Numbered from the stretch's first letter, positions 34,640 to 54,768 are shown. The stretch: 64,000 nt of DNA from a bacterium (GCA_026416715.1 JAOAEQ010000005.1:1190-65189), one strand, 5' to 3'. The notes: generated by a model not told the origin, from the sequence alone. Translations and numbers: made by a program.

Positions 34640-34668
34640 TTAAGTTTAATATATTCTGAACCTAAATT

Positions 34669-35364
34669 TTATTTTTTCCGCGCACAAACTGCAATGGTGA
34701 CCATCCATCGTGCTAATCTCTTATCTAACTTCTTATCCAACCATCTTAATATGCCATTCAACCAAGGAATAACAGATGGGAATACATGAATGCCTTTGTA
34801 TTCAAGTATTTCTAAATTAAGATTCTCTAGAAAAATCCGAAATGCTTTATAATAATGGAGCCAATTTTCGTATCCTTTATGCCTTCTTACTCCAATTACA
34901 TTGGCTAAAACAACCGCAAAATACCAGAATGATTTATTGGGAACAGTGATACAAATAATCCCATTTTTTTAAGACACGAACCAGTTCCCGAGTAGCTTGT
35001 AGCGGGTTGGAAGTATGTTCGATAACATCAGAAGAAATAACATATCCAAATGCATTTTCCTTAAAAGGCATCGCGAGAATTGAACCAACCACACCGTGAG
35101 CCATTGAATTTTTTTCTTTTGTTATCTTAACGAGTCGTTCACCAATATCAATTGCAATTACTTTTCCGGATCTATCTATTATCGCTTTCGTAAACCACCC
35201 GGTACCGCAACCGGCATCGAGAATAAGTTTATTCTCTAATATTTGCGTACCTAAAAATCAGTAAAAATAACCTCAATTCTTCTCTGGGTATCATATCGGT
35301 TGCTTAGTGAATCAAATTTAATAGCTATTTCATTATAAAATTTCTCTTTATCATTACTTTTCAC
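34669..35364 (-). pseudogene. Class I SAM-dependent methyltransferase interrupted by two frameshifts in homopolymer runs
   Basis: No ORF of 60 aa or more in the track; manual minus-strand translation gives three consecutive frames with methyltransferase motifs (LILDAGCGTGWF, VIAIDI, RVLKK then GIICITVPN); frame breaks coincide with T7 (34964-34970) and A5 (35252-35256) on the plus strand; no in-frame ATG. Confidence 0.5.
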
Positions 35365-36277
35365 AATTTTTTTCTTTAATAATATATTGTGGTCTGCGTT
35401 TCGATTCAATAAATAGTTTCCCTAAATACTCACCAATTATTCCTAAGATGAGAAGTTGTATACTCCCGATAAACAAGACACTAACAATAAGTGACGCCCA
35501 ACCAGGAACAGTTTTATCAGTAAATATTGTTATACCTACCGCATATCCTCCATAAAGAATGCATAAAAATGCTAATATTAATCCTAAAAAGGTTGCTAAA
35601 TGCAATGGCCTAGTACTAAATGAAGTAATTCCGGTTATCGCAAGAAGAATCATATTTTTAAAGGAATATTTGGTCTTCCCGGAATATCTTTTTTGAGGAG
35701 TATATTCTAATGCATATTGGCGGAAACCAACCCAAGAAACTAACCCTCGAAGGAAAATAAAGGTCTCATTCAGTTCTCGTAATATATCAATCACCTTTCT
35801 ATCTAATAATCGGAAATCTGCTGTTCCCGGAGTTATTTCAATTTCAGATATTTTATTCAGTAGTTTATAGAATAACCACGACGTTTTTCTCTTTAAAAAT
35901 GAAGCATCAGGGTATTCTTTCCGGACAGTATACACGATATCGTATCCTTCTTGCCATTTTTGAATCATCGCATCAACTAATTCTGGAGGATGTTGTAAAT
36001 CTGCATCAAGAGTGATTAAACAGTCTCCTGTCGAATAATCTAGCCCGGCTTTTAATGCTTTTTGTTGGCCAAAATTTCGCGAAAACGCAAGATATTTTAT
36101 CTTAGCTCCGTTTTCTACAAGTTCTTTAATTCGTTCTAACGTTGCATCCGTACTGCCGTCATCAACAAAAATAATTTCGTAATCCGAATACTTGTTTAAG
36201 ACCTCGGTTAGTTTCTTTACAAGAATCGGAATATTTTGTTCTTCATTATAACAGGGGATTACTACAGATATTTTCAT
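35354..36277 (-). CDS. GT2 polyprenyl-phosphate sugar synthase (GtrB/ArnC-like)
   Basis: VVIPCYNEE...IFVDDGSTD...LDADLQHPP GT2 motifs and C-terminal TM helices. Confidence 0.8.
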   Translation of the reverse strand: MKISVVIPCYNEEQNIPILVKKLTEVLNKYSDYEIIFVDDGSTDATLERIKELVENGAKIKYLAFSRNFGQQKALKAGLDYSTGDCLITLDADLQHPPELVDAMIQKWQEGYDIVYTVRKEYPDASFLKRKTSWLFYKLLNKISEIEITPGTADFRLLDRKVIDILRELNETFIFLRGLVSWVGFRQYALEYTPQKRYSGKTKYSFKNMILLAITGITSFSTRPLHLATFLGLILAFLCILYGGYAVGITIFTDKTVPGWASLIVSVLFIGSIQLLILGIIGEYLGKLFIESKRRPQYIIKEKNCEK

Positions 36278-36292
36278 GGTATCGTTTGGGTA

Positions 36293-37366
36293 TTAGTATA
36301 ATTGAATATCATCAATAAATATTTCGCAATTAACTCCGAGTGTATTGATTCCGATAACTTCCATAACCATATTTTTAGTACTCCATTGGTTTACTGGATT
36401 TAATGCGGTCGCAACTGCCTGTTGATAAAGATCATTTGCTTCAATTTTCGTCCATACTTTTGGTTGCAAACGGATAACAGCAGAAATTCCACCAGCTTCG
36501 GGTCCATATTTTGCTTGTGGTTCGGTTTTTTCATATCGAAAACTAACAACCAATTGCACCACTGATTCTTTGTTTGCATAAACGAACATTCTAACTCCAA
36601 CAGGATGGGTAAACGGCAGAAATACGACCTTCCCCCATAAATCTGGATTTTGTTCGTTATACTCAATCGAGAACAATTCGGATTTTTGACCCCGATATGA
36701 AAGAGTTGAACTTAATGTATGTGTTTTTATTACAGCAGTATTATTTTTTACCCAACGGTCAAAAACTGGTACACTTGTTCGCTCAAAATTTTCTACAGTT
36801 ACAAAAACATCGTGACCATTCCACAGGATATTTTTCCATGGTTTTAAAAAACTTTGATTAGCCATTTGTTTTAGTGTTGCCAAAGAAGCGATCGGATCGC
36901 ATGAGAGCATAGCTCCTAAACTATATGCATCTTCCGCTTCAACCCATTTCTTTTCAACAACATATACAGAAGCGATTGACCAACAGATAGTCTGCATTTC
37001 TTCACGGAAGCTTACCCAGTCAACATGAGTCGGTCGAATCTGCTGAAATCTATAAAACATATCGAGTGTTCGGGTATATTTTTTCTGCAAATAGTATAAT
37101 TTTCCTAAATAAAAATAAGCTTCTCGATCCTCTGGATTTATCTGAATAGCTTTTTCAAAGCTATAAATCGCAGGCAATATTTGTCCATTCTTAAATAACT
37201 CTTTTCCTCGAATAACCGCTACTTTGGGATCGGATAAAGCTATTTGTCGCATATATATTGAGCCCCAAAAAACTATTATGAGAAATCCAATAAGCAAAAA
37301 TAGCCAAATGATCAAAATTCCATTAAGGTTTAGTTTCTTCATATTGTTATTATTCGAAATAATCAT
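36293..37366 (-). CDS. Signal-anchored TPR protein with C-terminal domain shared with the C25-like peptidase at 39770-43228
   Basis: N-terminal hydrophobic segment, TPR-like repeats (REAYFYLGKLYYLQKKY), C-terminal about 170 aa (SYRGQKSEL...GINTLGVNCEIFIDDIQLY) homologous to the C-terminus of the 1152 aa protein; 4-bp overlap with the upstream gene. Confidence 0.55.
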   Translation of the reverse strand: MIISNNNNMKKLNLNGILIIWLFLLIGFLIIVFWGSIYMRQIALSDPKVAVIRGKELFKNGQILPAIYSFEKAIQINPEDREAYFYLGKLYYLQKKYTRTLDMFYRFQQIRPTHVDWVSFREEMQTICWSIASVYVVEKKWVEAEDAYSLGAMLSCDPIASLATLKQMANQSFLKPWKNILWNGHDVFVTVENFERTSVPVFDRWVKNNTAVIKTHTLSSTLSYRGQKSELFSIEYNEQNPDLWGKVVFLPFTHPVGVRMFVYANKESVVQLVVSFRYEKTEPQAKYGPEAGGISAVIRLQPKVWTKIEANDLYQQAVATALNPVNQWSTKNMVMEVIGINTLGVNCEIFIDDIQLY

Positions 37367-39519
37367 TCAGGTCGAAAATCTTCATTTCGAGTTAAAATAA
37401 CCGCATCAAATGTATGCCATACTCTCATATCTTTTGCAGAAACAGCTAAAATATTCTCGCCTTTATTCAATAATAAACTTCCACCAGTGAACCACCCAAT
37501 CTCTTCAGGAACCCAGTCAGGTTTAATAACAGTTTCTTCCCCATGATTGGTAGAAATAAAATATTCTCCGGCTTTGCGTATTCTTAGCCAAACATAATAT
37601 TTTCCTGTAATCGGTATATTAATGACAAATTGATGTTTTTTGTGCGAATATTCATTACATAATTCATCTTTCGGATTCCATTTAACCGCTTCAGCAGGAA
37701 AATAACTCCCTGAACTATCTACCAACCATCCCGAACCACTCGTTGCGCGCAGAACAATTGAATCGTTACTATAGATTTCCTGAACAGGTTGCAGTGGTTT
37801 TAACCATATTTGGATATCAAGCTCATTCATTAATTTCTTTGCATGAATATACGTTTCTCTTTTCGTCAGCGAGATATCGTCTATCGATTCGACAAACCGT
37901 TGAATTTTGCTCGAGGCAAAAACAATACTGGTAACCAATGAATAATATCCTTGACTCGTGACTTGAATTTTTCTGCCCGGATTAGTCTCAAAAGAAAATT
38001 TCCCGGAATTATCACTGGTGATCGTATCATAGATTATACCGGTATTGAGCAAACCTGTTCCTGGAGAAACTAATTTAACCACTGCTGGAATCGGGTTCCC
38101 GTGGACGTCGGTTACAACCCCAGTGACTTTGACTGAAGTAATAATATCAACCGTTTTTTCTTGTTTTGGCAAAAAATAAATTGGATTTGCTATCGCTACT
38201 CCAGAAGAAGAATCCAGTTGTACTAAATACCAAGCTTTTTCAGTTTCGTTAATTAAATATTCATACTGAAATTCTTTTTTTCGTTCCGGTATATACACCG
38301 TATTAATAACCATCCCATTTCGAATAATTTTTAGTTTTTTCAATTCATCTCCATACCCGGCAGTATAACATAGAATACGCATAGAATGTTGTTGTGCATC
38401 AGGTTCCAGAATGGTACCGGGTAAAAAGGTATCAATTGAAAATAGAAGCAGTGGTCCTGTAGTAGCAAAATTTTTCCCCTGTTTCAAATTCTGCATAATC
38501 TGATTATAATCAAACTTCTCGCTATAGGTATAGGTTCTACCCCATCCAATGTCTCCTCCTGTTTCTGTATCTAATCCTGTATCGCTATTCATCACTCCCG
38601 CAACTCGATATCCAGCGTTCAAAATGGCAAACCAGGTCTGAAGGTCTCTTTCATTCTCGAGAATCTCAATTGCATCAACTGCACCGCATACTACTGCTAA
38701 TGGTAATTCTCGCGCTAAATTGCTTAACACTGCATTTTTTCTATTATCTAACCACCAACGAGTAGGATGTGCAGCAATAAATACCGGATTATGCTTATTT
38801 GTTCGTTCCTCCTCACTTTGCTCAATCAAATGCCATCCTTCTTGTCCTATAAGATTTGGGAGATTTAACCGAAGATAATGGATTTTGGGAATTTTATCGT
38901 TATATCCTTTCATTTCGACGCCGGGTCGGCATATAAAATCTGTATCACTATTTTCATTACAGATAGTAAATATTTGGTCGTTGGTTAAATTTTTCACGGA
39001 ATCATAGAGTTGAACAAATGTGACATAATCTAATCCAACCGCTCGAGCTAACATAGCACCATACTGTATATTAGTAGCAATCCTTGCATTTTCTCGTCTA
39101 GCAACATGAATATGCGAATCACCACAATACCATTTGATTTGCGGTAAATTAACCAGGCGTTTTAATCTAACCAGAACATTCCTTCTCTGTGGTGATAATC
39201 TAACGATAACCTGTTGCGGCTGATATTCAAAGCCACGGCTAACGAAAATTTTCACTGTTCCTAATGGAAGAATGAAGTCGCCCTGCCCGTCGATAAAAAC
39301 CGCGTGATTTTGATAGGGACTTTTCGCGTAGGTTTTATTTTCACACTCAATGACTAATTTTGCGGGCATTAATTGGCCAGTTTCATGGTCAACAACTCGA
39401 ATTCGTAACTCCGCAGTTTTTACTTGGGATAATTGATGAACTGATGTACATCCTATCGTAACTACCCATATAAATATCAACCCTACATAAAAGAATTGCT
39501 TATAGGAATATTTCTCCAT
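37363..39519 (-). CDS. Putative lipoprotein: PHP/CehA-McbA-like metallohydrolase with Ig-like beta-sandwich domain
   Basis: Signal peptide with possible lipobox (VVTIGCTS); CGDSHIHV resembles the N-terminal H-x-H metal motif of PHP-type hydrolases; mid-protein CarboxypepD_reg-like segment (VTGVVTDVHGNPIPAVVKL). Confidence 0.45.
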   Translation of the reverse strand: MEKYSYKQFFYVGLIFIWVVTIGCTSVHQLSQVKTAELRIRVVDHETGQLMPAKLVIECENKTYAKSPYQNHAVFIDGQGDFILPLGTVKIFVSRGFEYQPQQVIVRLSPQRRNVLVRLKRLVNLPQIKWYCGDSHIHVARRENARIATNIQYGAMLARAVGLDYVTFVQLYDSVKNLTNDQIFTICNENSDTDFICRPGVEMKGYNDKIPKIHYLRLNLPNLIGQEGWHLIEQSEEERTNKHNPVFIAAHPTRWWLDNRKNAVLSNLARELPLAVVCGAVDAIEILENERDLQTWFAILNAGYRVAGVMNSDTGLDTETGGDIGWGRTYTYSEKFDYNQIMQNLKQGKNFATTGPLLLFSIDTFLPGTILEPDAQQHSMRILCYTAGYGDELKKLKIIRNGMVINTVYIPERKKEFQYEYLINETEKAWYLVQLDSSSGVAIANPIYFLPKQEKTVDIITSVKVTGVVTDVHGNPIPAVVKLVSPGTGLLNTGIIYDTITSDNSGKFSFETNPGRKIQVTSQGYYSLVTSIVFASSKIQRFVESIDDISLTKRETYIHAKKLMNELDIQIWLKPLQPVQEIYSNDSIVLRATSGSGWLVDSSGSYFPAEAVKWNPKDELCNEYSHKKHQFVINIPITGKYYVWLRIRKAGEYFISTNHGEETVIKPDWVPEEIGWFTGGSLLLNKGENILAVSAKDMRVWHTFDAVILTRNEDFRPE

Positions 39520-39769: not shown

Positions 39770-42700
39770 CTATTGGTTATTCTTTAAATATACTTTTAAT
39801 TTATTTGGTGGAAAAAACAATTCAATATCATCTACATATAATTGAACATTTCTCCCTCGAGTATTAATACCAAGATATACAATATGCATATTATCAATAT
39901 CCCAGCAATGAACATCATCAACTGATCTATAGGAAACAAATAAATCTGGATACACTCGAATATCACCACTAATATCCTTTTGTGATAATGCACGTTTTTT
40001 AGCAATTTGATAGAGGTCATTTATTTTTAATTCAATCCAATTGGAACTGATTGAATATGCTTGAGAACAAAACGCTTCGTTATGTTTTCCATTATAGGTA
40101 ACCGTAGCATTTAATTCTACCTTACTTTCGGTTGTTCCTCGTACAAAAAGACGAACTCCTATCGGACCGCGTAACGGTATGACAACCTCCTTACCCCAAT
40201 AATCTACCCAGCCTGGTATAGGATAGACTAAGTCAATCAGTTCACTTTTTTTACCCCGATGAGCATAGGTGGTTGAAAGGTAATGACCTATTATTTTTGA
40301 TTTATCACTCCAATGCCAATTTTTTAACTGCACCGCAGTAGCTGTTTCAAAAGTTTCGATTGGAACAGAGAGTTTCGCCAGGCGTTGAATCATTTTTAAA
40401 TCTCGGCATCCGTATTGAAATGCCTCGCTATATTTTAAGAGTGCATTTAGCATATCTTTTTGTTGATAAAATCTATCGCCGTCTTCCATGATTTGTTTTG
40501 CTTTTCTATCATTATCTATAGAAACTGATACAATAATATCCCGAATATCCTTATTGTTCATTGGCGTTACAGACCAAAGTAATCTTGGCAATAACGCTGG
40601 TAAACCAACAGTTTGCCCAACATTTATGGTATCTACAGTGGAAACTATTGTATATCCTATTGCATCCCACTTTGTTTTCTCATTCCATAAATAGCAATAA
40701 GCGATGAGTGTATCTTGTACGAAATGAGGTGGAATGGTCACTTTTGTGGTGAACTTTGCCTGATGATTTATGGTAATATTTTTTTGGATAACTAATTTCC
40801 CTTTTTCAGTCTTGATGATAACACTCCCTTTTGCAGGTCGTTTTCTATCCAGTGTTCCTGTAATTCGAATTTGAGGTTTAGATTTTATGGTCCGCGTTCC
40901 CTCTAATTGAACTATATCGTGAGGGAATGAAAGTTGTGTACCCGGATCACCTAACAAGACATAGGTAGCAGAAATATCAGGTAGTTTAATTTCTTGTTTC
41001 GCATTAATAAAAATATCACCAAGACGTCGAACATTCTTTTTAAACATCTGCGTGAACATTGCCCGGTCAAATGCATCGTTGGAAGAAACATAGCTTCGCC
41101 AAGTAGCGCTAATCACCGCTATCGCACCAGCGTTCGGTGTTTTTAGTAACACTTCACCAAGGCTATCATTATCAATATTATCAAAAACGCCGGTATAACA
41201 AGTTAAAGCGATTACTAATGGATATTTTCCATAGTTTTTCAATTGCAATATATTTTTTACTCCAAAAAAATCACGGTTATCTGGAACGACTTCTACTCCA
41301 TGTCGCTCTAAATCCATGCGACCGCTTTCCCAAACATATCCGCCGCCATGCCCAGTAAAATGAAGTATGATTCGTCCTTCGTTAATATTTTCAACAATAT
41401 CTTCCGTTCGATATTTATAATCCGGTGAACCACTTGATGGATATCTGCGATATACTTCATAATATGATGGCACATACGATTTCGCTAATTCTTCACTAAT
41501 CCCTTCAAACATCGGTTCTGGACTCGCTAAAAAGAATATCTTTTGACGCCATTGACCAAAGTTCGGCTTCTGTTCGTATTGAATAATTTTATTTACTACA
41601 TTAGTTACTTCTTCAATCGAATGCGCAGAAATCCTACCAATTGCCATTTCCGGTTTTGTTTCATCTTCGCCAACCGCGACAAACCAGTTATCTGACGCTG
41701 CTGCACCCATATATGTTGCCCAATAATACGTAGGAATATATAACCGAGCATGCGCTAGATTCATATTTCCGCGTAAATCAACACTAACATCACCGACGAG
41801 TAAAACATATCGCGGTCGTGGTTGCCAGTTGTAATAGGCATACTTGAGAAAAGACTTAATTGCTTTCGCATCAACTAATCCATAGTTGAAAGTATCATAA
41901 ACTTCTGATGTTTTGACACATTTTACCGTTAATCCGGTCTTCTTACGCCATGCTAACAACGGTTGAATTGCAGGATAAAAATCATCGTGCGTTATAACCA
42001 GATATTCCGCACCACTTGTATCTTGTGTTAAATCGTAATACATTATTTTTTCGATTTTAACCGGAGATTTTTTCTGCCTATCAGTTAGAGCAATGTAATG
42101 AACCGAACTCGATTCGTTATATAGTGTAAATTGTGCTTTAAAAGAACTTGAAGAATCAAGTGAACTTATTGTAATTGCAGGTATTATTACTTTCTTGTGA
42201 GTAATATCATATACATTAATATGTGGATTCGTAAACCCTCGAATTTCATGTTGGCTGGTAACTATATCATAGTTCATATTTATTGCGCTAAATACTAATT
42301 CATCGTTGGTTGCAATAAATGATTTCCAATAACTTAATTGAAATTGAACCATATAGATAACATCAATATCAGATGCTTGCCCAGTTGGATCACCAGATTT
42401 TCCAGGTAACGATATTTGCAATACATTATTCCCTGCCTTAAAAAAATTCATCGGAACCGTATTACATTGATAAGTATGTTTTGCCCGACCATACCACCGA
42501 GTTTCACCAACTCGATTTCCGTTTAATCCAATAACAACATAATGGTTTCCATACGAGACTCCTTGAAATACTATAGATAGTGAACAGAATAATGTTGGAG
42601 CTAAAATGGGATGGGTGATAGTAAACTGAAATGGATAATCATTCACCGGCGCAGCTATTTCCCGCCAATACCATAGATTTTGCTGCTCTTCTGTTTGTCC

Positions 42701-43228
42701 AGCAGCGGTTCGTGAATAAATAAAGGTTTCCTTACGAAATTGAGTATCTCTAAACATTGTTTTAGTCGAGAAAGAGATACTGGTTGCAAGCAAATGAGTT
42801 TGTTCTATATTCCAGCGTAATCCGGTTGATTTTCCCCAGGTTAAATAATAGACATTGGTATCAGAATATTCATCAGGTTCACCATCCGAATTACGATTTT
42901 TCTCGCCATAAAATTCAATATAATCATTGGTTCCATCTAAGGTATAGCGGGTTGTAAACTCAGCGCTACACAATATTGGGATTTCTCTCCCTCGATTCCA
43001 GAGCTGAATACTGTGAGGAGTAACCTGACTTAAATTACAACCGGCATCTGCTAAATCTCGATATCCGATTCGATAGATTCCATCTTCATCAATATAAATT
43101 TTACATAATTCGGTCGGACCCGACCCTACTCCATACAAACCCCAAGCTACTGAACACAGTAATAGCATTATTCCTATACCTACTAGTATTATTTTATTAG
43201 TTAAGCGCTCTCTTCTATATTGTTTCAT
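39770..43228 (-). CDS. Secreted C25-family (gingipain-like) cysteine peptidase homolog with C-terminal accessory domains
   Basis: 1152 aa; signal peptide; central region with candidate catalytic His (ILHFTGHGGG) and Cys (PLVIALTCYTG) in C25-like spacing; conserved YVLLVGD block; C-terminal about 180 aa shared with the TPR protein. Confidence 0.6.
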   Translation of the reverse strand: MKQYRRERLTNKIILVGIGIMLLLCSVAWGLYGVGSGPTELCKIYIDEDGIYRIGYRDLADAGCNLSQVTPHSIQLWNRGREIPILCSAEFTTRYTLDGTNDYIEFYGEKNRNSDGEPDEYSDTNVYYLTWGKSTGLRWNIEQTHLLATSISFSTKTMFRDTQFRKETFIYSRTAAGQTEEQQNLWYWREIAAPVNDYPFQFTITHPILAPTLFCSLSIVFQGVSYGNHYVVIGLNGNRVGETRWYGRAKHTYQCNTVPMNFFKAGNNVLQISLPGKSGDPTGQASDIDVIYMVQFQLSYWKSFIATNDELVFSAINMNYDIVTSQHEIRGFTNPHINVYDITHKKVIIPAITISSLDSSSSFKAQFTLYNESSSVHYIALTDRQKKSPVKIEKIMYYDLTQDTSGAEYLVITHDDFYPAIQPLLAWRKKTGLTVKCVKTSEVYDTFNYGLVDAKAIKSFLKYAYYNWQPRPRYVLLVGDVSVDLRGNMNLAHARLYIPTYYWATYMGAAASDNWFVAVGEDETKPEMAIGRISAHSIEEVTNVVNKIIQYEQKPNFGQWRQKIFFLASPEPMFEGISEELAKSYVPSYYEVYRRYPSSGSPDYKYRTEDIVENINEGRIILHFTGHGGGYVWESGRMDLERHGVEVVPDNRDFFGVKNILQLKNYGKYPLVIALTCYTGVFDNIDNDSLGEVLLKTPNAGAIAVISATWRSYVSSNDAFDRAMFTQMFKKNVRRLGDIFINAKQEIKLPDISATYVLLGDPGTQLSFPHDIVQLEGTRTIKSKPQIRITGTLDRKRPAKGSVIIKTEKGKLVIQKNITINHQAKFTTKVTIPPHFVQDTLIAYCYLWNEKTKWDAIGYTIVSTVDTINVGQTVGLPALLPRLLWSVTPMNNKDIRDIIVSVSIDNDRKAKQIMEDGDRFYQQKDMLNALLKYSEAFQYGCRDLKMIQRLAKLSVPIETFETATAVQLKNWHWSDKSKIIGHYLSTTYAHRGKKSELIDLVYPIPGWVDYWGKEVVIPLRGPIGVRLFVRGTTESKVELNATVTYNGKHNEAFCSQAYSISSNWIELKINDLYQIAKKRALSQKDISGDIRVYPDLFVSYRSVDDVHCWDIDNMHIVYLGINTRGRNVQLYVDDIELFFPPNKLKVYLKNNQ

Positions 43229-43240
43229 AAAATCGTCTTT

Positions 43241-45886
43241 CTACTCCTCTGTTTTTGGATCTGCCTCATTATAATGTGGTGTTACTGGAGCTACCAGTTC
43301 CCGAGCCGCAGCAAATCGTTTGCTATATTCATTCCATAAATTTATTGTTATGACTAACGGAATTGTTCGGTAAGCACCCGAGATAGCAAATTGTGCATTC
43401 CATTTCATTTGATTATTCGGTACCAAAAAGGAAGATATTAAATCACCTGATTGTGTCCGAAGCTGAATGATTCCTCGTGTAAACTCATTTGCCCACATTC
43501 CACTCCCATCGGTTACCGAAATTATTCCTAGGTCCGATGTGGTTGTTTCGATTCGTTCGATTTTACATGGTATCGGCTCTGGAATTGAGATTAGTAATCC
43601 AGGGTCACCTAATAAAGTATATAAATTATTTATCTCTTCGTTATTAACTTCTCGTTTAGCATCTAAAAATGCATCTCCGAGTCTTATTGGAGTAGTTGAT
43701 TGAAATATTCGACGTAAAAATGCTTTATCAAACATTTCAAAACTAGCTTGTGAAACTCGATAGGTACCTCCAACACAGGCAATTGCACCAGCTTTATCGA
43801 CTTTTAATAATGCTTCCCCTATTCCATCTGACCACATGGAATCAAATTCGTTTGCATAACAAGTCATCAAAATAACTAACGGATATTTCTTTTTATTTTG
43901 TAACTTGGTTATATGTCTTACACCGAAAAATCCGCGATCTTTATATCCGACAGTTTCGGGTTGTCCTTCTTCACCCGGTCGGCCAACATCCAAATGAAAC
44001 GGACTCGCATGACCAGTAAAATGAACCAACCAAGCTCCTTCATTAAACCATTCTATCACATTTTGCGGTGTAATAACTACCGATTCAATGGTTTCCGGCG
44101 TTGCATAGCGCGGTAAAGAATTCATCTGATTGGGTACAACATGTTTCATCAACTCAAGATTGATTTGGTCAGTCCATTCCCGTGGAGTTGCTAGAAATAA
44201 TACTGATTGACGCCAGGGACCAAATTCTGCTTGCAATTCATATTCCAAAATTTTATTGATTACCGCTTCTGTTTCTGATACCGAATGCGATGGGATTCGA
44301 CCTATTGCGAGTTCCGGTATCGAATCTTCTCCTTCTAAACAAACATACCAGTTATCACTAGCAGCATATCCCGCTGACGATGCAAAATAATGCATCGGGA
44401 TATATGTTCGCCCCTCAGCTAAATTTAAGCTTCCTTTCATATCCCAACTCGCATCCCCAACTAAGAGAACATATTTCAATCGGGGGGATTTCCAGTGGTG
44501 ATAAGCATAGAATAAAAAATCACGAATCGCTTGCGGATTGATTATTCCGAAATTAAATTCATTATAGATATCTTCAATATTAACGAGTTCAGCCAATAAC
44601 CCTTGTTGTTTTCGCAATTCGACTAAAGGCTTCAAAATTTCATTAAATTCTGATGGAGAAATAATGATATACTCTGCTGATATTTCAGGATTCCGCCATT
44701 TACCAATCCATTGTTTCTCTATTCGAAACGGGGTTTTAATCCGATTTTCAGTGCACGCGAAATAAGATTGCGGTAAATCGGCTTTTTCAGGTTCAAAATA
44801 GGCAAAATAAGTCGTTTGTTTTAACAAACCCAATTTGGGTATTACTATCGGTTCGTATTTAGTAGTATTAGAGAGATTATATATACAAATATTCGGGTAG
44901 GTAAAATTTTTTATTCGTAATCCGGAAGGAAAAGTATGCTGCAAATCTTTATCTGAGAGTTGAAATTGAATATCATTATTGGTTGCGACTAGCTGTTGCC
45001 AACAATCTATTTCAAACCAAGAAAGAAAAACTACATCGATTTCCGACGCTAAATGTTTCGGGTCGCCCTCTTTACCTGGCAACGATATTTCTAACGAATT
45101 ACTTCCGACCTTAAAATATCCTATTGGGACAGAATCATTGGTATAAAGGAACTCGGTTGCTCCATCCCATCGTATTTCACCGAGAGGATATCCATTTAAA
45201 GAAATCACGACATAGTGGTCTGGATTTTGCGGTAACCGCGATACACCAAAAAATTTTATACGAACGCTACACTGCTTTGTAGTATCGCTACTTAACGATG
45301 GAACCGTGAACAGTAATTTTTTCTTCGTTGGTGCAGCAAGTTCCATCCAAAACCATCGTTCAGCAGCATCAATATTTACCCAACGGGAATGGATGAATTT
45401 TTCTTCCCGATGAATCTTATTGAGATAATCTATTTCAGATTGTGCTTTGATAATGCCATTCCATTTTGACTGCGGTTTTCCAATTACCCTATACCACTGC
45501 GGAGATAAATTGGGATTTGTCCAATGTAAAAAGTAAACGTTCGTATCCGTATATTCATCATAGTAAGCTGTTGAACCACGATTGAATGTTCCATAGAATT
45601 CGAGATAATCATTTTTATTCCATTGACTTGATTTTGTGGTTCCCGCGGAAAAATATACTGGAATACATTTTCCTCTGTTAGTTAATCGAATTTTGGTTGG
45701 ATTGATTTCTAACGGATTAATTCCTGCATCAAGTAGATCGAAATAGGTTATTCGATACAGTCCATCTTCATCAACGAAAATTTTTACTACGTTTTCTAAA
45801 TTTGGCTGTTTCGCTGGTAGTCCTAAAATGAGACTAACTATAGATAAAAAAAACGACACAACAATTATACTGCGGTTTAATTTCAT
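43241..45886 (-). CDS. Secreted C25-family (gingipain-like) cysteine peptidase homolog, paralog of the upstream gene
   Basis: 881 aa; signal peptide; colinear with the 1152 aa paralog through the N-terminal domain and catalytic region (YVLLVGD, LVHFTGHASP, PLVILMTCYAN) but with a different, shorter C-terminus. Confidence 0.6.
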   Translation of the reverse strand: MKLNRSIIVVSFFLSIVSLILGLPAKQPNLENVVKIFVDEDGLYRITYFDLLDAGINPLEINPTKIRLTNRGKCIPVYFSAGTTKSSQWNKNDYLEFYGTFNRGSTAYYDEYTDTNVYFLHWTNPNLSPQWYRVIGKPQSKWNGIIKAQSEIDYLNKIHREEKFIHSRWVNIDAAERWFWMELAAPTKKKLLFTVPSLSSDTTKQCSVRIKFFGVSRLPQNPDHYVVISLNGYPLGEIRWDGATEFLYTNDSVPIGYFKVGSNSLEISLPGKEGDPKHLASEIDVVFLSWFEIDCWQQLVATNNDIQFQLSDKDLQHTFPSGLRIKNFTYPNICIYNLSNTTKYEPIVIPKLGLLKQTTYFAYFEPEKADLPQSYFACTENRIKTPFRIEKQWIGKWRNPEISAEYIIISPSEFNEILKPLVELRKQQGLLAELVNIEDIYNEFNFGIINPQAIRDFLFYAYHHWKSPRLKYVLLVGDASWDMKGSLNLAEGRTYIPMHYFASSAGYAASDNWYVCLEGEDSIPELAIGRIPSHSVSETEAVINKILEYELQAEFGPWRQSVLFLATPREWTDQINLELMKHVVPNQMNSLPRYATPETIESVVITPQNVIEWFNEGAWLVHFTGHASPFHLDVGRPGEEGQPETVGYKDRGFFGVRHITKLQNKKKYPLVILMTCYANEFDSMWSDGIGEALLKVDKAGAIACVGGTYRVSQASFEMFDKAFLRRIFQSTTPIRLGDAFLDAKREVNNEEINNLYTLLGDPGLLISIPEPIPCKIERIETTTSDLGIISVTDGSGMWANEFTRGIIQLRTQSGDLISSFLVPNNQMKWNAQFAISGAYRTIPLVITINLWNEYSKRFAAARELVAPVTPHYNEADPKTEE

Positions 45887-45964: not shown

Positions 45965-47062
45965 TTAGTGCCGTTCGATATCTAGTAAGTGTGGATTATT
46001 CATAAAATACTCAACGTTATCCTGCATAGATTTATTCAATGGAATCCGTGGTTTAAATCCTAACTCATTTTTTGCTTTTTCGAAATCGCATAGTAAAATA
46101 TCTACTTCAGCGGGACGATACCGACTCTTATCGATTGCAATTTCAACTTCCACGTCACAAGCTTTTGCTGCCAGTTTAACCAGATTCTCAATCGTTATCC
46201 CAAACCCATGACCAAGATTATACGGTTCGCCTCGTTTCGCTTTTTCTACCGCCAGGAGATATCCTTGGATAATATCACGGACATCCGAAAAATCTCGAAT
46301 CGGATTCGGATTACCAATGGTAACGGTTTTAGTTTTTCGTAATTTAGCGCGAGCGATCTGTCGGGCAACGACTGAAGTCACAAATTGGAGTCCGCGTCGC
46401 GGACCTTCGTGGTTAAATGTTCTCGTCAATACTACCGGAGTTCCAAACGCTTTATAATGACACTGGGCTATTAATTCTCCGGCTACCTTTGAAACCGCAT
46501 ATGGCGATTGTGGTCGTAACGGATTCGTTTCTTTAATCGGCACCTCGTTCGGATAAACCAATCCATATTCTTCTGAGGAGCAAGCGATATGAATTGCTTG
46601 AATATTTGCCCGGGTTTGACGACTTGCTTCTAACACGTTTGCGGTGCCAATAATATTAGTTTCATAGGTTTCTATCGGTGCACGAAACGAGGTCGGAACA
46701 AAACTCTGTGCCCCTAAATGAAACACCACCTCTGGTTGGGTTAAGTTAAACGCAGCGATGATTGAATTGATATCCGTTAGATTTCCTTCAACCAGCTGGA
46801 TTTGGTTTAAAGTTTTTGCAAGATTTGGATAATCCGGGACGCTATGCCGCCGAATTAGGCCATAGACATTACATTCTAATTCAAGGAGTTTTTCGACTAA
46901 ATGACCGCCAACAAATCCGGTTATTCCAGTGATAAAAACTCTTTTCCCTTTCCAGAATGTTTTATCAACTAAATCTTTCTGCATCTCCTGTTCATAATTC
47001 GGAAAATGTTTAAGGTATTCATCTAAATGTTCTGGATCAATCAAATATTTTTTATCAATCAT
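45965..47062 (-). CDS. gmd: GDP-mannose 4,6-dehydratase
   Basis: ITGITGFVGGHL Rossmann loop, SPYAVSK, FNHEGPRRG..FVT and GNPNPIRDF blocks match the GMD family. Confidence 0.7.
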   Translation of the reverse strand: MIDKKYLIDPEHLDEYLKHFPNYEQEMQKDLVDKTFWKGKRVFITGITGFVGGHLVEKLLELECNVYGLIRRHSVPDYPNLAKTLNQIQLVEGNLTDINSIIAAFNLTQPEVVFHLGAQSFVPTSFRAPIETYETNIIGTANVLEASRQTRANIQAIHIACSSEEYGLVYPNEVPIKETNPLRPQSPYAVSKVAGELIAQCHYKAFGTPVVLTRTFNHEGPRRGLQFVTSVVARQIARAKLRKTKTVTIGNPNPIRDFSDVRDIIQGYLLAVEKAKRGEPYNLGHGFGITIENLVKLAAKACDVEVEIAIDKSRYRPAEVDILLCDFEKAKNELGFKPRIPLNKSMQDNVEYFMNNPHLLDIERH

Positions 47063-47146
47063 ACGTTCTCCTTTTTAAAACCAAATTCGAATCATTAGAT
47101 TTAAATTATTTTCTAATAGTTTATTATGTTAAATATGGTTTTGGAC

Positions 47147-48088
47147 TTACGCTTTGGTTCTATAATACTCCAATAAATCAGATAATGTTTGGTGAAATGG
47201 AATTTGCGGGCTCCAGCCAGTCTGGTGCTTAAATTTTGAATTATCGCCAACTAAGATAGGTACATCTACCGGTCGAGTTCGATTCTGGTCTTGTACGATA
47301 TCGATTTTCTCTGTAGTCATAGAAAGTAATAAATTGAGAATTTCACGAACTGAATAACCCTGACCAGAACAGACATTATAAACCTCCCCTGCTTCACCTC
47401 TTTCCATTGCTAACCAATACGCTCTAACTATATCGCGAACATCAGTGAAATCTCGGCATGTATCTAGGTTACCTACCATAATCTGCCGATTTTGCTTATT
47501 TTTTTCAATATCTGCAATTTGTTTTGCAAAAGCTGGACAAACGAAATCCGGTTTCTGTCCGGGACCAGTATGATTAAATGCCCGAATTCGAATAATGGGC
47601 AACTGATAATTTAGATAATATTGATAAGCGACCATTTCCTGCCCGATTTTACTTACCGCATATGGAGTTAAAGGCCGAAACGGTTGACTTTCTTTAATTG
47701 GTAATTCTTCGGGAAACACTTTCCCATACTGGTCAGCGGAACAAGCGATGATAATTCGGCATTTGGGTAAGTTCGCTTGGCGTACCGCATCGAGAAGATT
47801 TACCGTCCCAACGATGTTGGTCATCAACGTTGCCGTTTGCTGCTGATATGATTCTGGTACATTGGTTCGCGCAGCGAGATGAAATATACCATCCGGCTGA
47901 ATTGTTGCAATAGTCTGCGCAACTTGGTCAGTATTCATCAAATCAACGGTATGTAAAATAATTCCAGGTAAATCACAAGAAACGGTCTGAATATCTAAAC
48001 CAAATAAAGATTCTTTTGTTTCAGAAATAATATATTGTGCTAGATGTTGGCCAACGAAACCATTTATTCCGGTAATTATTAGTTTCAT
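47147..48088 (-). CDS. GDP-4-keto-6-deoxy-D-mannose reductase-like SDR (Rmd-like)
   Basis: TGINGFVGQHL, TPYAVSK, FNHTGPGQ and VGNLDTCRDFTDVRD blocks resemble Rmd-type reductases; adjacent to gmd. Confidence 0.55.
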   Translation of the reverse strand: MKLIITGINGFVGQHLAQYIISETKESLFGLDIQTVSCDLPGIILHTVDLMNTDQVAQTIATIQPDGIFHLAARTNVPESYQQQTATLMTNIVGTVNLLDAVRQANLPKCRIIIACSADQYGKVFPEELPIKESQPFRPLTPYAVSKIGQEMVAYQYYLNYQLPIIRIRAFNHTGPGQKPDFVCPAFAKQIADIEKNKQNRQIMVGNLDTCRDFTDVRDIVRAYWLAMERGEAGEVYNVCSGQGYSVREILNLLLSMTTEKIDIVQDQNRTRPVDVPILVGDNSKFKHQTGWSPQIPFHQTLSDLLEYYRTKA

Positions 48089-48323: not shown

Positions 48324-49448
48324 ATGAAACTCCTCATTCGTAGTATTTTGCGCGAATTTATTTCTATAACTTTTCTCGTATTATTTCTTTTCACTGCGGT
48401 TTTTATAATCTTTGCTACCAAACGAATTTTCGATGTAATTGATTTAATTTTCAATCGCGACGTCGGTCTTTTAACGATACTCAAAATTTTCGGGTTACTT
48501 CTTCCGTATGTTACAAGTTTAACCCTACCGATATCATTATTAGTTGCTGGATTAGTGGTGTTCGGGAGACTAGTTCTAGATCGGGAATGGTTAGCATTTC
48601 AAACTAGTGGAATTAGTCCTGGTTCAGTGATTGTGCCGCTACTCATTTTGGGGATAATCCTCAGCGGGGGACTAATGTATTCGGCAGAGTACGTCGTCCC
48701 AAAATGTTATCGACAGGCACGGCATCTAATATATAACGCAGTAAATAATATTACGGTTACGCTTAAAGAGAACACCTTTAATCCAATAGGAAATAATGTC
48801 GTCCTGTACTATCGAACGAAAACCGAAGCTGACGGAATAATGCACAATATTATTGTTCTTTATTCAGAAGAGAAAAAGTTACGCCGCTTATTCCTAGCGC
48901 CCCGCGGCAAAGTATCAGTTGATCCAAAGCTAGGATTGATTCGATTAACGTTAGAACATGGTATGTATCATGAAACCGTACCAACTGATTCCACAGTCTA
49001 TTATATCGGTCAGTTTACAAAATATGAGCAAAACATCGCTTTTACCGAGTTACTTGCTCAGACGGAAAAACTACAGCTTGGTCCGAAAGAAATGCAACGG
49101 GTTGAATTAATAACCGAGATTAATAACCGAAAAGCAAAGAATCTCCCTACAGAACGACTGGAATACGAACTCGCACAACGGCCAGCAAAATCGTTCGGCG
49201 CGTTTATCTTCGTTCTACTTGGAATCCCGCTTGGGATATTCTGGCCACGTTTTGGTAAATCGTTAGGAATGGCAATTGAACTTGGCTTTGCATTATGTAT
49301 ACCTTATTTCTATTATGCAATAATGACATTGGGGGAAGATTTGGCTCGCGGGAAGATTATCCCATTTTGGTTCGGAGCATGGCTACCGAATATGACAATG
49401 GGTATAATTGGGTTAATTCTTTTATTCCAGAGCTGTCGACAGAAATGA
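48324..49448 (+). CDS. LptF/LptG-family (YjgP/YjgQ) lipopolysaccharide export permease
   Basis: 374 aa; N-terminal MKLLIRSILREFISITFLVLFLFTAVF typical of the LptF/G family; TM helices flank a periplasmic domain; stop overlaps lptD start. Confidence 0.75.
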   Translation: MKLLIRSILREFISITFLVLFLFTAVFIIFATKRIFDVIDLIFNRDVGLLTILKIFGLLLPYVTSLTLPISLLVAGLVVFGRLVLDREWLAFQTSGISPGSVIVPLLILGIILSGGLMYSAEYVVPKCYRQARHLIYNAVNNITVTLKENTFNPIGNNVVLYYRTKTEADGIMHNIIVLYSEEKKLRRLFLAPRGKVSVDPKLGLIRLTLEHGMYHETVPTDSTVYYIGQFTKYEQNIAFTELLAQTEKLQLGPKEMQRVELITEINNRKAKNLPTERLEYELAQRPAKSFGAFIFVLLGIPLGIFWPRFGKSLGMAIELGFALCIPYFYYAIMTLGEDLARGKIIPFWFGAWLPNMTMGIIGLILLFQSCRQK

Positions 49449-53397: not shown

Positions 53398-54768
53398 ATG
53401 AGCTTTTTTATTGATTCTCACGTCCATTTGGATGACCCAAAATATACCTCTGATCGGGAGGCAGTGATTCATCGAGCGTTCGATACCGGCGTTAACTGGT
53501 TAATCCAAATCGGAACGGATATTCCGAGCGATGAATTTGCAATTCAATTAGCTGAACAATATCCTACCATTTACGCTACCGTGAGTATACACCCTCATGA
53601 TGCTAACGCATTTGATGAATCGAGTTATATAAAACTTCGCACGTTAGCTCAGCATCCGAAAGTGGTTGCTATCGGTGAAACCGGTTTAGATTATCATTAC
53701 GACTTTTCGCCACGTGAAATACAGCGAACGGTTTTTCGTCGGTTAATGGAACTCGCTGCGGAACTGAACAAACCGGTAGTCATTCATAGTCGGGCAGCAA
53801 ATCGTGATACATTACACATTCTAACCGAATATCAAGGAAAAGTTACGGGGGTTATGCATTGTTTTTCGGGAGATGAATTGATGATGAAAGAATGTATTCA
53901 ACTCGGGTATTATATTTCTATTGCTGGTCCGGTAACCTACCCAAACTCAGCTCGATTACAGGAACTGGTTAAAAAAATCCCAATCCCGCGTCTTTCCATT
54001 GAAACCGATTCGCCTTATCTCGCTCCACAATCGTATCGGGGTAAACGAAATGAACCAGCGTACGTAATTGACATTGCAAAAAAAATCGCTGAATTGCGTG
54101 GACTAACCGCAAGCGATATAGGCAGGATTGCAGCAATTAACGCAAAACTCTTATTCGGAATATCGGTTCCTGATGAACCGAAAATTGCTTATCCGATTCG
54201 TAATTCGTTATATCTGAATATAACCAACCGGTGTACTAACCAATGTTATTTTTGTGTTCGGTTTTATACTGATTATGTTATGGGACATAATCTCCGCTTA
54301 AAAATCGAACCGACAACGGAGGAAATTATCGCTGCAATCGGTGATCCGAAACAATACGAAGAGGTTGTTTTCTGTGGATATGGTGAACCTACCCTGCGAT
54401 TAGATGTCATGAAAACAGTTGCTCGATGGTTAAAAGAACAAGGGGTTAAAGTTCGATTGGATACTAATGGGCACGGTAATCTGATCCATCAACGGAATAT
54501 CGTTCCGGAACTGGTTGGGTTAATTGATTCGGTGAGTATTAGTCTCGATGCAGAAAATCAGGAACAGTATATGAAAATATGTAAGCCACAATTCGGTGAA
54601 CCTACATTTCAAGCAGTCATTGATTTTATTAAAGAATGCAAAAAATTGTTGCCGGAAGTAAGCGTTACTGTTGTCGGCGTACCTGAGGTTAGTGAAATAA
54701 ACTGCAGAAAATTAGCGGATACTCTAGGGGTTAAATTCCGGTTCCGGGTTTACAATGAAGTAGGATAG
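53398..54768 (+). CDS. TatD-family hydrolase fused to a TatD-associated radical SAM domain
   Basis: N-terminal TatD motifs (FIDSHVHLDD, GETGLDYH, HCFSG); C-terminal about 180 aa with CxxxCxxC (NRCTNQCYFC) and GYGEPTL radical-SAM-like motifs. Confidence 0.8.
   Translation: MSFFIDSHVHLDDPKYTSDREAVIHRAFDTGVNWLIQIGTDIPSDEFAIQLAEQYPTIYATVSIHPHDANAFDESSYIKLRTLAQHPKVVAIGETGLDYHYDFSPREIQRTVFRRLMELAAELNKPVVIHSRAANRDTLHILTEYQGKVTGVMHCFSGDELMMKECIQLGYYISIAGPVTYPNSARLQELVKKIPIPRLSIETDSPYLAPQSYRGKRNEPAYVIDIAKKIAELRGLTASDIGRIAAINAKLLFGISVPDEPKIAYPIRNSLYLNITNRCTNQCYFCVRFYTDYVMGHNLRLKIEPTTEEIIAAIGDPKQYEEVVFCGYGEPTLRLDVMKTVARWLKEQGVKVRLDTNGHGNLIHQRNIVPELVGLIDSVSISLDAENQEQYMKICKPQFGEPTFQAVIDFIKECKKLLPEVSVTVVGVPEVSEINCRKLADTLGVKFRFRVYNEVG

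What the first reader, a model, noticed from the sequence alone, without database searches (positions are those of the whole stretch)
39770..45886. Tandem paralogous secreted C25 (gingipain-like) cysteine peptidase homologs inside a glycan-biosynthesis locus
Two very large adjacent genes (1152 and 881 aa, 12 bp apart, same strand) each have a signal peptide, a shared N-terminal domain and a central block with candidate catalytic His (HFTGHGGG / HFTGHASP) and Cys (LTCYTG / MTCYAN) in the caspase-like His-Cys arrangement of C25 peptidases. They sit between glycosyltransferase genes and gmd/rmd, suggesting surface-protein processing coupled to glycan assembly. Their C-termini diverge: only the first carries the domain shared with the TPR protein at 36293-37366. 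No T9SS-type C-terminal domain was recognised, so the secretion or anchoring route is open.
Basis: partly seen in the sequence, partly recalled or inferred. Interest (0 to 1): 0.62.

Follow-up and report, generated by a model that had tools for sequence, protein, structure and literature searches.

The report
Paired C25 cysteine peptidases, one glycan-tethered
Two neighbouring genes in a cell-surface sugar-polymer operon of an unclassified bacterium encode intact gingipain/PorU-family (C25) cysteine peptidases, and the longer one ends in a previously undescribed sugar-binding-like module that probably holds it on the polymer the operon makes; this is an interesting variant of a known enzyme family, not a new kind of system.

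The parts
39770..43228 (-). C25-A gene, 1152 aa (NCBI calls a 1132-aa version that starts 20 codons downstream)
   Evidence: ORF; PF01364 E=4.8e-89; identical NCBI protein P0001 'C25 family cysteine peptidase'
43136..43228 (-). A residues 1-31: K/R-rich n-region plus a 22-residue hydrophobic helix (Sec signal peptide or signal anchor)
   Evidence: It is the only hydrophobic window in the protein. AF2 models it as helix 2-31.
42029..43114 (-). A residues 39-400: conserved N-terminal beta-rich module (motif KIYIDEDGIYRI...) shared with B, PorU and the whole superfamily
   Evidence: pLDDT is mostly above 90. The NCBIfam PorU model is matched from position 7. The motif aligns to PorU residues 38-62. 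Conserved columns G50, Y52, F106, H229, N236, N268.
40934..42004 (-). A residues 409-765: Peptidase_C25 catalytic domain
   Evidence: Pfam match 1-373/374; aligned to PorU 407-796, Kgp and RgpB
41348..41350 (-). A His627 codon (catalytic His, motif G-H-G)
   Evidence: Invariant in 52/52 family members; aligns with the His of PorU GHGG and with Kgp His444; codon verified
41198..41200 (-). A Cys677 codon (catalytic Cys)
   Evidence: Present in 51/52 family members; aligns with the PorU catalytic Cys and with Kgp Cys477; codon verified
41096..41098 (-). A Arg711 codon: clade-invariant Arg 34 residues after the Cys, a possible counterpart of PorU Arg722
   Evidence: Present in 7/7 clade members but a minority of the superfamily. 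It is off by one position from the PorU Arg in HMM alignments. The PorU Arg is described in PMC4560394.
40643..40918 (-). A residues 771-862: Ig-like beta-sandwich after the catalytic domain
   Evidence: AF2 strands 771-862 with pLDDT above 90. Foldseek alignments to RgpB and Kgp (~500 columns) run beyond the C25 core into their Ig-like domains.
40373..40519 (-). A residues 904-952: three TPR-like helices that link to domain X
   Evidence: AF2 domain model helices with pLDDT above 90. Family partners carry TPR repeats in the same place.
39809..40366 (-). A residues 955-1140: 'domain X', a CBM-like beta-sandwich shared with the TPR protein
43241..45886 (-). C25-B gene, 881 aa: signal peptide, N-module, C25 domain (residues 406-764) and Ig-like domain, with no TPR/domain X tail
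   Evidence: B-type orthologs P0003-P0006 are 47-75% identical to one another.
44009..44011 (-). B His626 codon (catalytic His)
43859..43861 (-). B Cys676 codon (catalytic Cys)
36293..37366 (-). Membrane-anchored TPR + domain X protein (357 aa). Its gene overlaps the PHP gene by 4 bp and lies 15 bp from the GT2 gene.
   Evidence: TPR Pfam hits; N-terminal hydrophobic segment 11-44; domain X
37363..39519 (-). Conserved neighbour: CehA/McbA-type PHP metallohydrolase with a CarboxypepD_reg-like domain (718 aa) and a lipoprotein-like N-terminus
   Evidence: NCBIfam NF038032 scores 106 bits against an 80-bit cutoff. A 695-aa gene sits in the same position in the syntenic JGI contig.
35354..36277 (-). 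GT2 polyprenyl-phosphate glycosyltransferase (PgfS/ArnC-like)
45965..48088 (-). Two SDR 4,6-dehydratase/epimerase genes heading the block. They are conserved upstream of the C25 pair in both related loci.

Best explanation
A and B are two catalytically competent clan-CD, family-C25 cysteine peptidases that leave the cytoplasm through Sec. They arose by an old tandem duplication. They belong to a very broad superfamily built as N-terminal beta module, C25 core, then Ig-like domain. The T9SS sortase PorU is one specialised branch of that superfamily. A and B are orthologs of neither PorU nor the gingipains. Paralog A additionally carries three TPR-like helices and a carbohydrate-binding-module-like beta-sandwich (domain X). 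The same module ends the neighbouring membrane-anchored TPR protein, and in another genome it is fused to a Wzy-type polymerase/ligase. The most likely mechanism is that domain X binds the polysaccharide made by this Wzx/Wzy operon, or its lipid-linked intermediate. That docking places A, probably working alongside B, at the envelope site where the glycan is assembled or displayed. There the His/Cys dyad cleaves envelope or surface proteins through a thioester intermediate. Shown: family membership, dyad conservation, fold, paralogy, synteny, the CBM-like fold of domain X and its recurrence in glycan loci. Inferred: glycan binding, the substrates, hydrolysis versus transpeptidation, and periplasmic versus surface location.
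Against: There is no experimental or direct computational evidence for substrate, activity or glycan binding. The three syntenic loci come from closely related organisms, so the conserved gene order could reflect shared ancestry and not selection. Across ~90 distant C25 loci, glycan genes are rarely nearby and neither domain X nor the PHP gene recurs, so the glycan link is not a family-wide rule. A 250-bp gap separates A from the PHP/TPR-X/GT2 genes, and the promoter/terminator scans are uninformative. The C-terminal module was poorly modelled in the full-length prediction and only became confident with its own alignment.
Confidence: 0.55

Rival explanations
1. They are ordinary extracellular degradative proteases used for nutrition, like the environmental gingipain-like peptidases proposed for sediments. 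On this reading the CBM-like tail of A binds particulate or foreign polysaccharide, and the position in a glycan operon is incidental.
For: Most relatives are large multidomain C25 proteins in diverse contexts, and glycan genes are near only ~8 of ~90 distant loci. The Poribacteria locus L002 has no glycan genes. The literature discusses environmental gingipain-like peptidases as extracellular degraders (PMC6752024, listed). CBM-type folds are typical of secreted hydrolases.
Against: No outer-membrane secretion signal was found. Domain X otherwise occurs on inner-membrane-anchored TPR proteins and on a Wzy fusion inside an EPS locus, which points to the cell's own glycan and not to foreign polymer. 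The pair keeps its place between sugar-nucleotide and glycan genes in all three known loci of the clade.
Confidence: 0.22
2. They are T9SS-independent, PorU-like transpeptidases ('glycan sortases'). The acyl-enzyme formed on the catalytic Cys would be resolved by an amine on the operon's glycan, covalently attaching envelope proteins to it. Domain X would play the acceptor-presenting role that PorZ plays for PorU.
For: PorU is the closest solved structure and the best NCBIfam model, matching over the N-module and core. A clade-invariant Arg lies 34 residues after the Cys, close to the PorU-specific Arg722 proposed to favour aminolysis. The glycan-binding-like module and the LPS/EPS context parallel the PorU-PorZ-A-LPS arrangement (PMC8545088; PMC10202324).
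Against: The PorU-model match is equally strong in homologs from Chloroflexi, Omnitrophica, Acidobacteriota and a gammaproteobacterium, so it carries no sortase-specific information. The Arg is offset by one position in both HMM alignments. The clade profile scores RgpB almost as high as PorU (80.6 versus 91.8 bits). No candidate substrates with a shared C-terminal signal were found, and the PKD protein in L001 has no recognisable sorting domain. No aminotransferase for an amino-sugar acceptor was found among the annotated genes, though not all were scanned.
Confidence: 0.13
3. They are genuine PorU orthologs working in a type IX secretion system encoded elsewhere in the genome.
For: The top NCBIfam hit is the PorU model, and A (1152 aa) has nearly the same length and catalytic-domain position as P. 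gingivalis PorU.
Against: Scores of 294.8 and 251.6 bits fall below the 420-bit cutoff. There is no T9SS CTD, which PorU retains in order to bind PorV (PMC11285876). No porV/porZ/porQ/sprA-type gene was found among the window genes scanned (all ORFs of at least 150 aa from 15089 to 63381 and most of those upstream). The nearest named GatB relatives are not FCB-group phyla.
Confidence: 0.04
4. One or both paralogs are non-catalytic pseudoenzymes kept as binding or scaffold proteins.
For: Paired paralogs often include a degenerate copy. There is a clade-specific, low-confidence insertion of ~17 residues between the His and the Cys.
Against: The Gly-His, Cys and surrounding motifs are invariant in all seven A- and B-type sequences.
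Confidence: 0.03

Closest known systems
[quoted passage not shown]
   Same: C25 catalytic domain at the same position (about residues 407-796 in PorU versus 409-765 in A). The His/Cys dyad aligns. The N-terminal beta module is homologous, including the VKIxVDxxGxYRxT motif. Overall length is similar (1158 versus 1152 aa). PorU is the best structural match (E=3e-35 over ~985 columns). Both are functionally associated with an LPS-type glycan.
   Different: A and B are below the curated cutoff (294.8 and 251.6 versus 420 bits). They lack the retained T9SS CTD. No PorV/PorZ/PorQ or other T9SS genes are nearby. The C-terminal third is unrelated: TPR plus a CBM-like domain in A, and nothing in B. 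They carry an extra ~17-residue loop between the His and the Cys. The PorU-specific Arg is only approximately matched. The same level of PorU similarity is seen in homologs from phyla without a known T9SS.
Gingipains RgpB and Kgp (MEROPS C25; PDB 1cvr, 4rbm)
   Different: There is no Propeptide_C25 (PF08126) match. The ~360-residue N-module differs from the ~200-residue gingipain prodomain. There is no T9SS CTD. Single-sequence similarity is weaker than to PorU (29.6 and 20.7 versus 56.7 bits). S1 specificity cannot be inferred.
Large uncharacterised C25 proteins of Poribacteria, Latescibacteria, KSB1, Ignavibacteria, Chloroflexi, Acidobacteriota and others (e.g. P0008, P0024, P0032, P0055)
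   Same: Same N-module, C25 core and Ig-like core at 25-32% identity. These are the nearest sequence relatives outside the clade, and like A and B they are labelled 'C25 family cysteine peptidase' by NCBI.
   Different: They are usually 1500-1750 aa with Propeptide_C25, FlgD_ig or CARDB domains, and often a T9SS type A sorting domain. None carries domain X. They are rarely next to glycan genes; L009 is an exception.
Beta-sandwich carbohydrate-binding modules (CBM11, CBM22, CBM4, CBM30; e.g. PDB 1v0a, 2w5f, 1gui)
   Different: Sequence identity is only 9-15%. There is no Pfam or CAZy-type family match. Domain X is attached to TPR repeats, membrane anchors, a Wzy polymerase or a peptidase, not to glycoside hydrolases. 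Ligand binding is untested.

Membership tests
Peptidase family C25 (Pfam PF01364, MEROPS clan CD) | Significant full-length match to the family model above the gathering score | tested here: met
   299.6 and 258 bits against a 23-bit cutoff, model coverage 1-373/374
Peptidase family C25 (Pfam PF01364, MEROPS clan CD) | Catalytic His then Cys, in that order, aligned with the catalytic residues of characterised members | tested here: met
   A H627/C677 and B H626/C676 align to the PorU GHGG...TC motif and to Kgp His444/Cys477. The His is invariant and the Cys is present in 51/52.
Peptidase family C25 (Pfam PF01364, MEROPS clan CD) | Caspase-like alpha/beta fold | tested here: met
   Foldseek probability 1.0 to PorU, RgpB and Kgp, with pLDDT above 90 across the catalytic domain.
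Peptidase family C25 (Pfam PF01364, MEROPS clan CD) | Thiol-dependent peptidase activity | not testable with these tools
   Requires biochemistry
Gingipains (RgpA/RgpB/Kgp type) | N-terminal gingipain prodomain (Propeptide_C25, PF08126) | tested here: not met
   No PF08126 hit at E<=0.01 for A or B, although many distant homologs carry it
Gingipains (RgpA/RgpB/Kgp type) | Cleavable T9SS C-terminal domain | tested here: not met
   No PF18962 or TIGR04183 hit. Positive control: P0024 and P0032 hit TIGR04183.
Gingipains (RgpA/RgpB/Kgp type) | Acidic S1 pocket residue that confers Arg or Lys specificity | tested here: inconclusive
   By counting along the alignment, the Kgp Asp516 position appears to fall opposite Asn717 in A and a non-conserved residue in B. 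It lies in a variable loop just past the end of the HMM alignment, so no conclusion can be drawn.
PorU, T9SS sortase (NCBIfam NF033707) | Score at or above the curated equivalog cutoff | tested here: not met
   294.8 bits (A) and 251.6 bits (B) against a cutoff of 420
PorU, T9SS sortase (NCBIfam NF033707) | PorU-type N-terminal module joined to the C25 core | tested here: met
   Model positions 7-759 are matched by A residues 41-784, and the N-terminal motif aligns with PorU 38-62. The feature is not specific, because it is equally present in Chloroflexi, Acidobacteriota, Omnitrophica and gammaproteobacterial homologs.
PorU, T9SS sortase (NCBIfam NF033707) | Retained C-terminal T9SS CTD that docks on PorV | tested here: not met
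   No CTD hit. The C-terminus of A is TPR plus a CBM-like domain, and B ends 16 residues after the Ig-like domain.
PorU, T9SS sortase (NCBIfam NF033707) | Genome encodes a T9SS (SprA/Sov, PorV, PorZ, PorQ, GldKLMN), typically with porV adjacent | tested here: inconclusive
   No such gene was found among the window genes scanned (all ORFs of at least 150 aa from 15089 to 63381 and most of those upstream).
PorU, T9SS sortase (NCBIfam NF033707) | Conserved Arg 32 residues after the catalytic Cys (Arg722), absent in gingipains (PMC4560394) | tested here: inconclusive
   A clade-invariant Arg lies at +34 (A R711, B R710). It is offset by one column from the PorU Arg in both HMM alignments, so a structural superposition is needed.
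Carbohydrate-binding module (beta-sandwich CBM superfamily), for domain X | Jelly-roll beta-sandwich fold | tested here: met
Carbohydrate-binding module (beta-sandwich CBM superfamily), for domain X | Sequence membership in a described CBM family | tested here: not met
   No Pfam family at E<=0.1 for the beta-domain in any of 29 members
Carbohydrate-binding module (beta-sandwich CBM superfamily), for domain X | Demonstrated glycan binding | not testable with these tools
   Only contextual support: the Wzy_C fusion in an EPS locus and the GT2-adjacent gene in this window

The most novel reading that the evidence does not exclude
The pair is a T9SS-independent protein-to-glycan ligation system. 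A PorU-like C25 transpeptidase would carry its own glycan-capturing module (TPR plus CBM-like domain X, in effect fusing the PorU and PorZ roles). It would covalently anchor envelope proteins to the Wzx/Wzy polysaccharide or LPS in a lineage outside the Bacteroidota/FCB group. That would imply that PorU-type 'glycan sortases' predate, or exist independently of, type IX secretion.
Probability: 0.12. Interest if true: 0.8.

Novelty: new variant of a known kind. Interest (0 to 1): 0.4.

Why it matters
Only two kinds of C25 enzyme are understood: the gingipain virulence proteases and the T9SS sortase PorU, both from Bacteroidota. This locus, and the control done here, show that the PorU-type body plan (N-module plus C25 core) is spread across many phyla, including ones without a known T9SS, and none of those proteins has an assigned role. 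A conserved pair of such enzymes inside an O-antigen/EPS operon is a concrete, testable case for a link between C25 peptidases and cell-surface glycans outside type IX secretion, especially since one copy carries a new CBM-fold module that is also fused to a Wzy polymerase elsewhere. The work also defines a small undescribed domain family (domain X) associated with polysaccharide assembly. If the enzymes are simply proteases docked on the cell's own glycan, the result is a useful annotation refinement and not a discovery.

Tried and rejected
1. Finding the source genome to check for T9SS, sortase or exosortase genes. The MAG is not among the GTDB representatives scanned, and its genes are not in the gene-position index, so a genome-wide check was impossible.

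2. Taxonomic placement with GatB. The nearest named hits (~62% identity) are spread over Nitrospinota, Binatia, Nitrospirota, Desulfobacterota-type and Schekmanbacteria labels, and the closer hits (71-88%) are unnamed. No phylum could be assigned.

3. Treating the PorU NCBIfam hit as evidence of sortase function. This was rejected after the control, which showed equal or higher scores for homologs from several phyla without a known T9SS.

4. Using the PorU-specific Arg722 as a discriminator. A clade-invariant Arg exists but is one column off in the alignments, so the test is inconclusive.

5. Testing family-wide association with glycan genes. tblastn of 18 window proteins against ~90 distant C25 loci found glycan genes in only ~8 loci, and never the PHP gene, domain X or the 921-aa protein. 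The metagenome scan found no additional members of the A/B clade (best 32% identity).

6. Promoter and terminator scans. Counts did not exceed the shuffled expectation, so they say nothing about operon boundaries.

7. Looking for a substrate sorting signal in the syntenic SBBP/PKD protein of L001. No recognisable C-terminal domain was found.

8. The PorU structure paper (PNAS 2021, PMC8501833) is not held in the library, so PorU domain boundaries were taken from the alignments only.

9. The profile search for more domain X proteins was swamped by TPR words and returned only five hits, though one of them (P0274) was informative.

Full report
**Observation.** The two ORFs are exactly as described. 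A lies at 39770-43228 on the minus strand (1152 aa) and B at 43241-45886 on the minus strand (881 aa). They are separated by 12 bp. The motifs HFTGHGGG/LTCYTG and HFTGHASP/MTCYAN are present. Each protein has one N-terminal hydrophobic segment and no other. Orthologs show ordinary Sec signal-peptide features, for example P0005 ...VQVFA|ETS. NCBI's gene call for A starts 20 codons downstream and loses the positively charged n-region. A and B are 36% identical over residues 8-865, E=1e-176. GC content (0.36-0.38) matches the neighbouring sequence.

**Identity.** Both proteins match Pfam Peptidase_C25 end to end: E=4.8e-89 for A residues 409-765 and E=2.1e-76 for B residues 406-764, against a 23-bit cutoff. 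The best solved relative by sequence is P. gingivalis PorU (6za2, E=9e-15), followed by Kgp and RgpB. In those alignments the His of A's GHGG motif pairs with the His of PorU's GHGG and with Kgp His444, and Cys677 pairs with the PorU catalytic Cys and Kgp Cys477. In a 52-sequence family alignment His627 is invariant, and Gly626 and Cys677 are each present in 51/52. In the seven-member clade alignment the Gly-His, the Cys and an Arg at +34 are invariant. An AlphaFold2 model of A (pLDDT 79 overall, mostly above 90 across residues 39-865 including the active-site blocks) has an N-terminal helix (2-31), a beta-rich N-module (39-400), the alpha/beta catalytic domain and an Ig-like sandwich (771-862). 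Foldseek against the PDB ranks PorU first (E=3e-35, ~985 aligned columns). The gingipains follow (E about 1e-23, ~500 columns covering the catalytic and Ig-like domains only). I could not measure the His-Cys distance because model coordinates are not exposed.

**PorU-like, but not PorU.** NCBIfam's PorU model (NF033707) matches A residues 41-784 to model positions 7-759 (294.8 bits) and matches B (251.6 bits), both below the 420-bit cutoff. The N-terminal motif KIxIDEDGxYRIT aligns with PorU 38-62, VKIRVDASGVYRLT. The C-terminal third of the PorU model, which includes the retained T9SS CTD that docks PorU on PorV (PMC11285876; PMC10202324), is not matched. Neither Pfam nor NCBIfam finds a Por_Secre_tail in A or B. 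No T9SS gene was found among the window genes scanned, which were all ORFs of at least 150 aa from 15089 to 63381 and most of those upstream. The decisive control is. Seven distant homologs match the same span of the PorU model at 195-392 bits. They include proteins from Chloroflexi (290.6), Omnitrophica (301), Acidobacteriota (212.7) and the gammaproteobacterium Wenzhouxiangella (194.8). The N-module plus C25 body plan is therefore a property of a very broad superfamily, in which PorU is one specialised branch. The resemblance does not argue for sortase chemistry here. The clade profile also scores RgpB almost as well as PorU (80.6 versus 91.8 bits). Gorasia et al. (PMC4560394) noted an Arg 32 residues after the catalytic Cys that is conserved in PorU orthologs and absent from gingipains. 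The A/B clade has an invariant Arg at +34 in a T-[W/Y]-R motif (PorU has T-T-R), whereas most of the superfamily has T-G-[L/F/V]. However, both HMM alignments put the two Arg residues one column apart, so this test is inconclusive.

**Paralogy and synteny.** The nearest relatives fall into an A-type group (A and P0002, 58% identity, both ~1150 aa with the same C-terminal tail) and a B-type group (B and P0003-P0006, 47-75% identity, 838-882 aa). A-type versus B-type identity is 35-37%. The duplication therefore predates the divergence of these organisms. Two other contigs share the gene order LptF/G, (SBBP/PKD protein), SDR, SDR, C25-B, C25-A, with a further ~695-aa gene after C25-A in the JGI contig; L001 ends within its C25-A gene. 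The clade is rare. The GTDB-representative scan and the metagenome scan found nothing closer than ~30-32% identity. GatB gives no phylum: the nearest named hits are at ~62% identity and come from several non-FCB phyla.

**Mechanism.** I commit to the following, at about 0.55 confidence. A and B are Sec-exported, active C25 cysteine peptidases. A is docked through its TPR plus CBM-like tail on the glycan assembled by this operon. The pair cleaves envelope or surface proteins at that site through the usual Cys thioester intermediate. The shown steps are family membership, dyad, fold, paralogy, synteny and the CBM-like fold with its recurrence in glycan loci. The inferred steps are glycan binding, the substrates, hydrolysis versus aminolysis, and the compartment. 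With no outer-membrane targeting signal found, the periplasm is the parsimonious location. The rivals are as follows:
- Plain nutritional exoproteases whose operon position is incidental (0.22). This is supported by the lack of glycan neighbours at most distant C25 loci. It is opposed by domain X's partners and by the conserved placement of the pair.
- A T9SS-independent PorU-like 'glycan sortase' (0.13). It is attractive by analogy with PorU, PorZ and A-LPS (PMC8545088), but nothing specific supports it.
- True PorU orthologs (0.04).
- Pseudoenzymes (0.03).

**Limits on the glycan link.** Across ~90 distant C25 loci, tblastn found glycan-pathway homologs in only ~8, and never the PHP gene, domain X or the 921-aa membrane protein. 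An Ignavibacteriales homolog does sit at the end of a GT2-WecG-GT2 operon, but a Poribacteria homolog does not. The three syntenic loci of the A/B clade are closely related, so conservation of gene order is weak evidence of selection. The promoter/terminator scans were uninformative.

**Novelty and verdict.** NCBI already annotates A as a 'C25 family cysteine peptidase', so the family assignment is not new. Four things go beyond the annotation:
- The PorU-type architecture occurs without T9SS hallmarks.
- The A/B pair is conserved.
- A C25 enzyme is fused to an undescribed CBM-fold domain family that is otherwise tied to polysaccharide assembly.
- The PorU-like body plan is shown to be superfamily-wide.

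I class this as a new variant of a known kind, with interest 0.4. The most novel reading not excluded is a T9SS-independent protein-to-glycan transpeptidase, with probability about 0.12. It would be of high interest if true.

Noticed in passing
window 34640-35353 (-): The 714-bp 'intergenic' gap between the GT2 gene and the 921-aa membrane protein gene holds a twice-frameshifted class-I SAM methyltransferase remnant (blastx E=3e-7 to the intact methyltransferase at 27141-27929). It is either a pseudogene or a MAG assembly error.
   Followed up: partly
window 31874-34639 (-): A 921-aa protein has about 11 hydrophobic segments (residues 11-422) and a tandemly duplicated ~150-residue C-terminal domain (each copy ending ...NWDF[W/Y]P...GWIDF). 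It has no Pfam or NCBIfam match. It may be a novel GT-C-like enzyme partnered with the adjacent polyprenyl-phosphate GT2.
   Followed up: partly
window 49295-51565 (+): A 756-aa protein with no family match follows LptF/G and is conserved beside LptF/G in L001 (tblastn hit). It may be a divergent LptD-like outer-membrane protein. The listed ORF start overlaps the LptF/G gene by 154 bp, and the real start is probably the internal Met before 'IYYKIKFWYLIII...'.
   Followed up: partly
window 41285-41347 (-), A residues 636-656: A clade-specific insertion of ~17 residues lies between the catalytic His and Cys (invariant G636, R637, E641, V647, F654, F655, G656). It is absent from PorU and Kgp and is modelled with pLDDT below 50. 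It could be a lid or regulatory loop.
   Followed up: no
L093/L094 10001-12466 (GCA_964497315.1, CAZCCH010000007.1): An 821-aa fusion of Wzy_C, TPR and domain X (P0274) sits between Wzc and a PMT_2-like gene in a Wza-Wzc-Wzy-GT4-Wzx exopolysaccharide locus. It ties the undescribed domain X family to polysaccharide polymerisation or ligation.
   Followed up: yes
L009 7297-14617 (Ignavibacteriales MAG JAGUYK010000037.1): A 1590-aa C25 homolog starts 8 bp before the end of the last gene of a GT2-WecG-GT2 operon. This is a second, independent case of a C25 gene in an operon with glycosyltransferases.
   Followed up: partly
L001 3386-6964 and the JGI 16963-bp contig: Both syntenic loci carry a ~1190-aa SBBP beta-propeller plus 8x PKD protein between LptF/G and the SDR genes. 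It is absent from the window. It has no T9SS CTD or other recognised C-terminal sorting domain.
   Followed up: partly
window 53398-54768 (+): A single ORF fuses a TatD-type hydrolase domain to a radical SAM domain.
   Followed up: no
window 1173-3251 (+) and 15089-16561 (-): A TMEM260-like protein O-mannosyltransferase with TPR repeats and a weak PMT_2-like GT-C enzyme lie in the same window. They hint at protein or glycan O-glycosylation capacity beyond the Wzx/Wzy pathway.
   Followed up: no
window 37363-39519 (-): The conserved neighbour of C25-A is a CehA/McbA-type PHP metallohydrolase with a CarboxypepD_reg-like domain and a lipoprotein-like N-terminus (...VVTIGC). Its role in a glycan operon is unexplained.
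   Followed up: partly
Their best hits are LegB-like NAD-dependent 4,6-dehydratases, so the sugar nucleotide they make is not established.
   Followed up: partly
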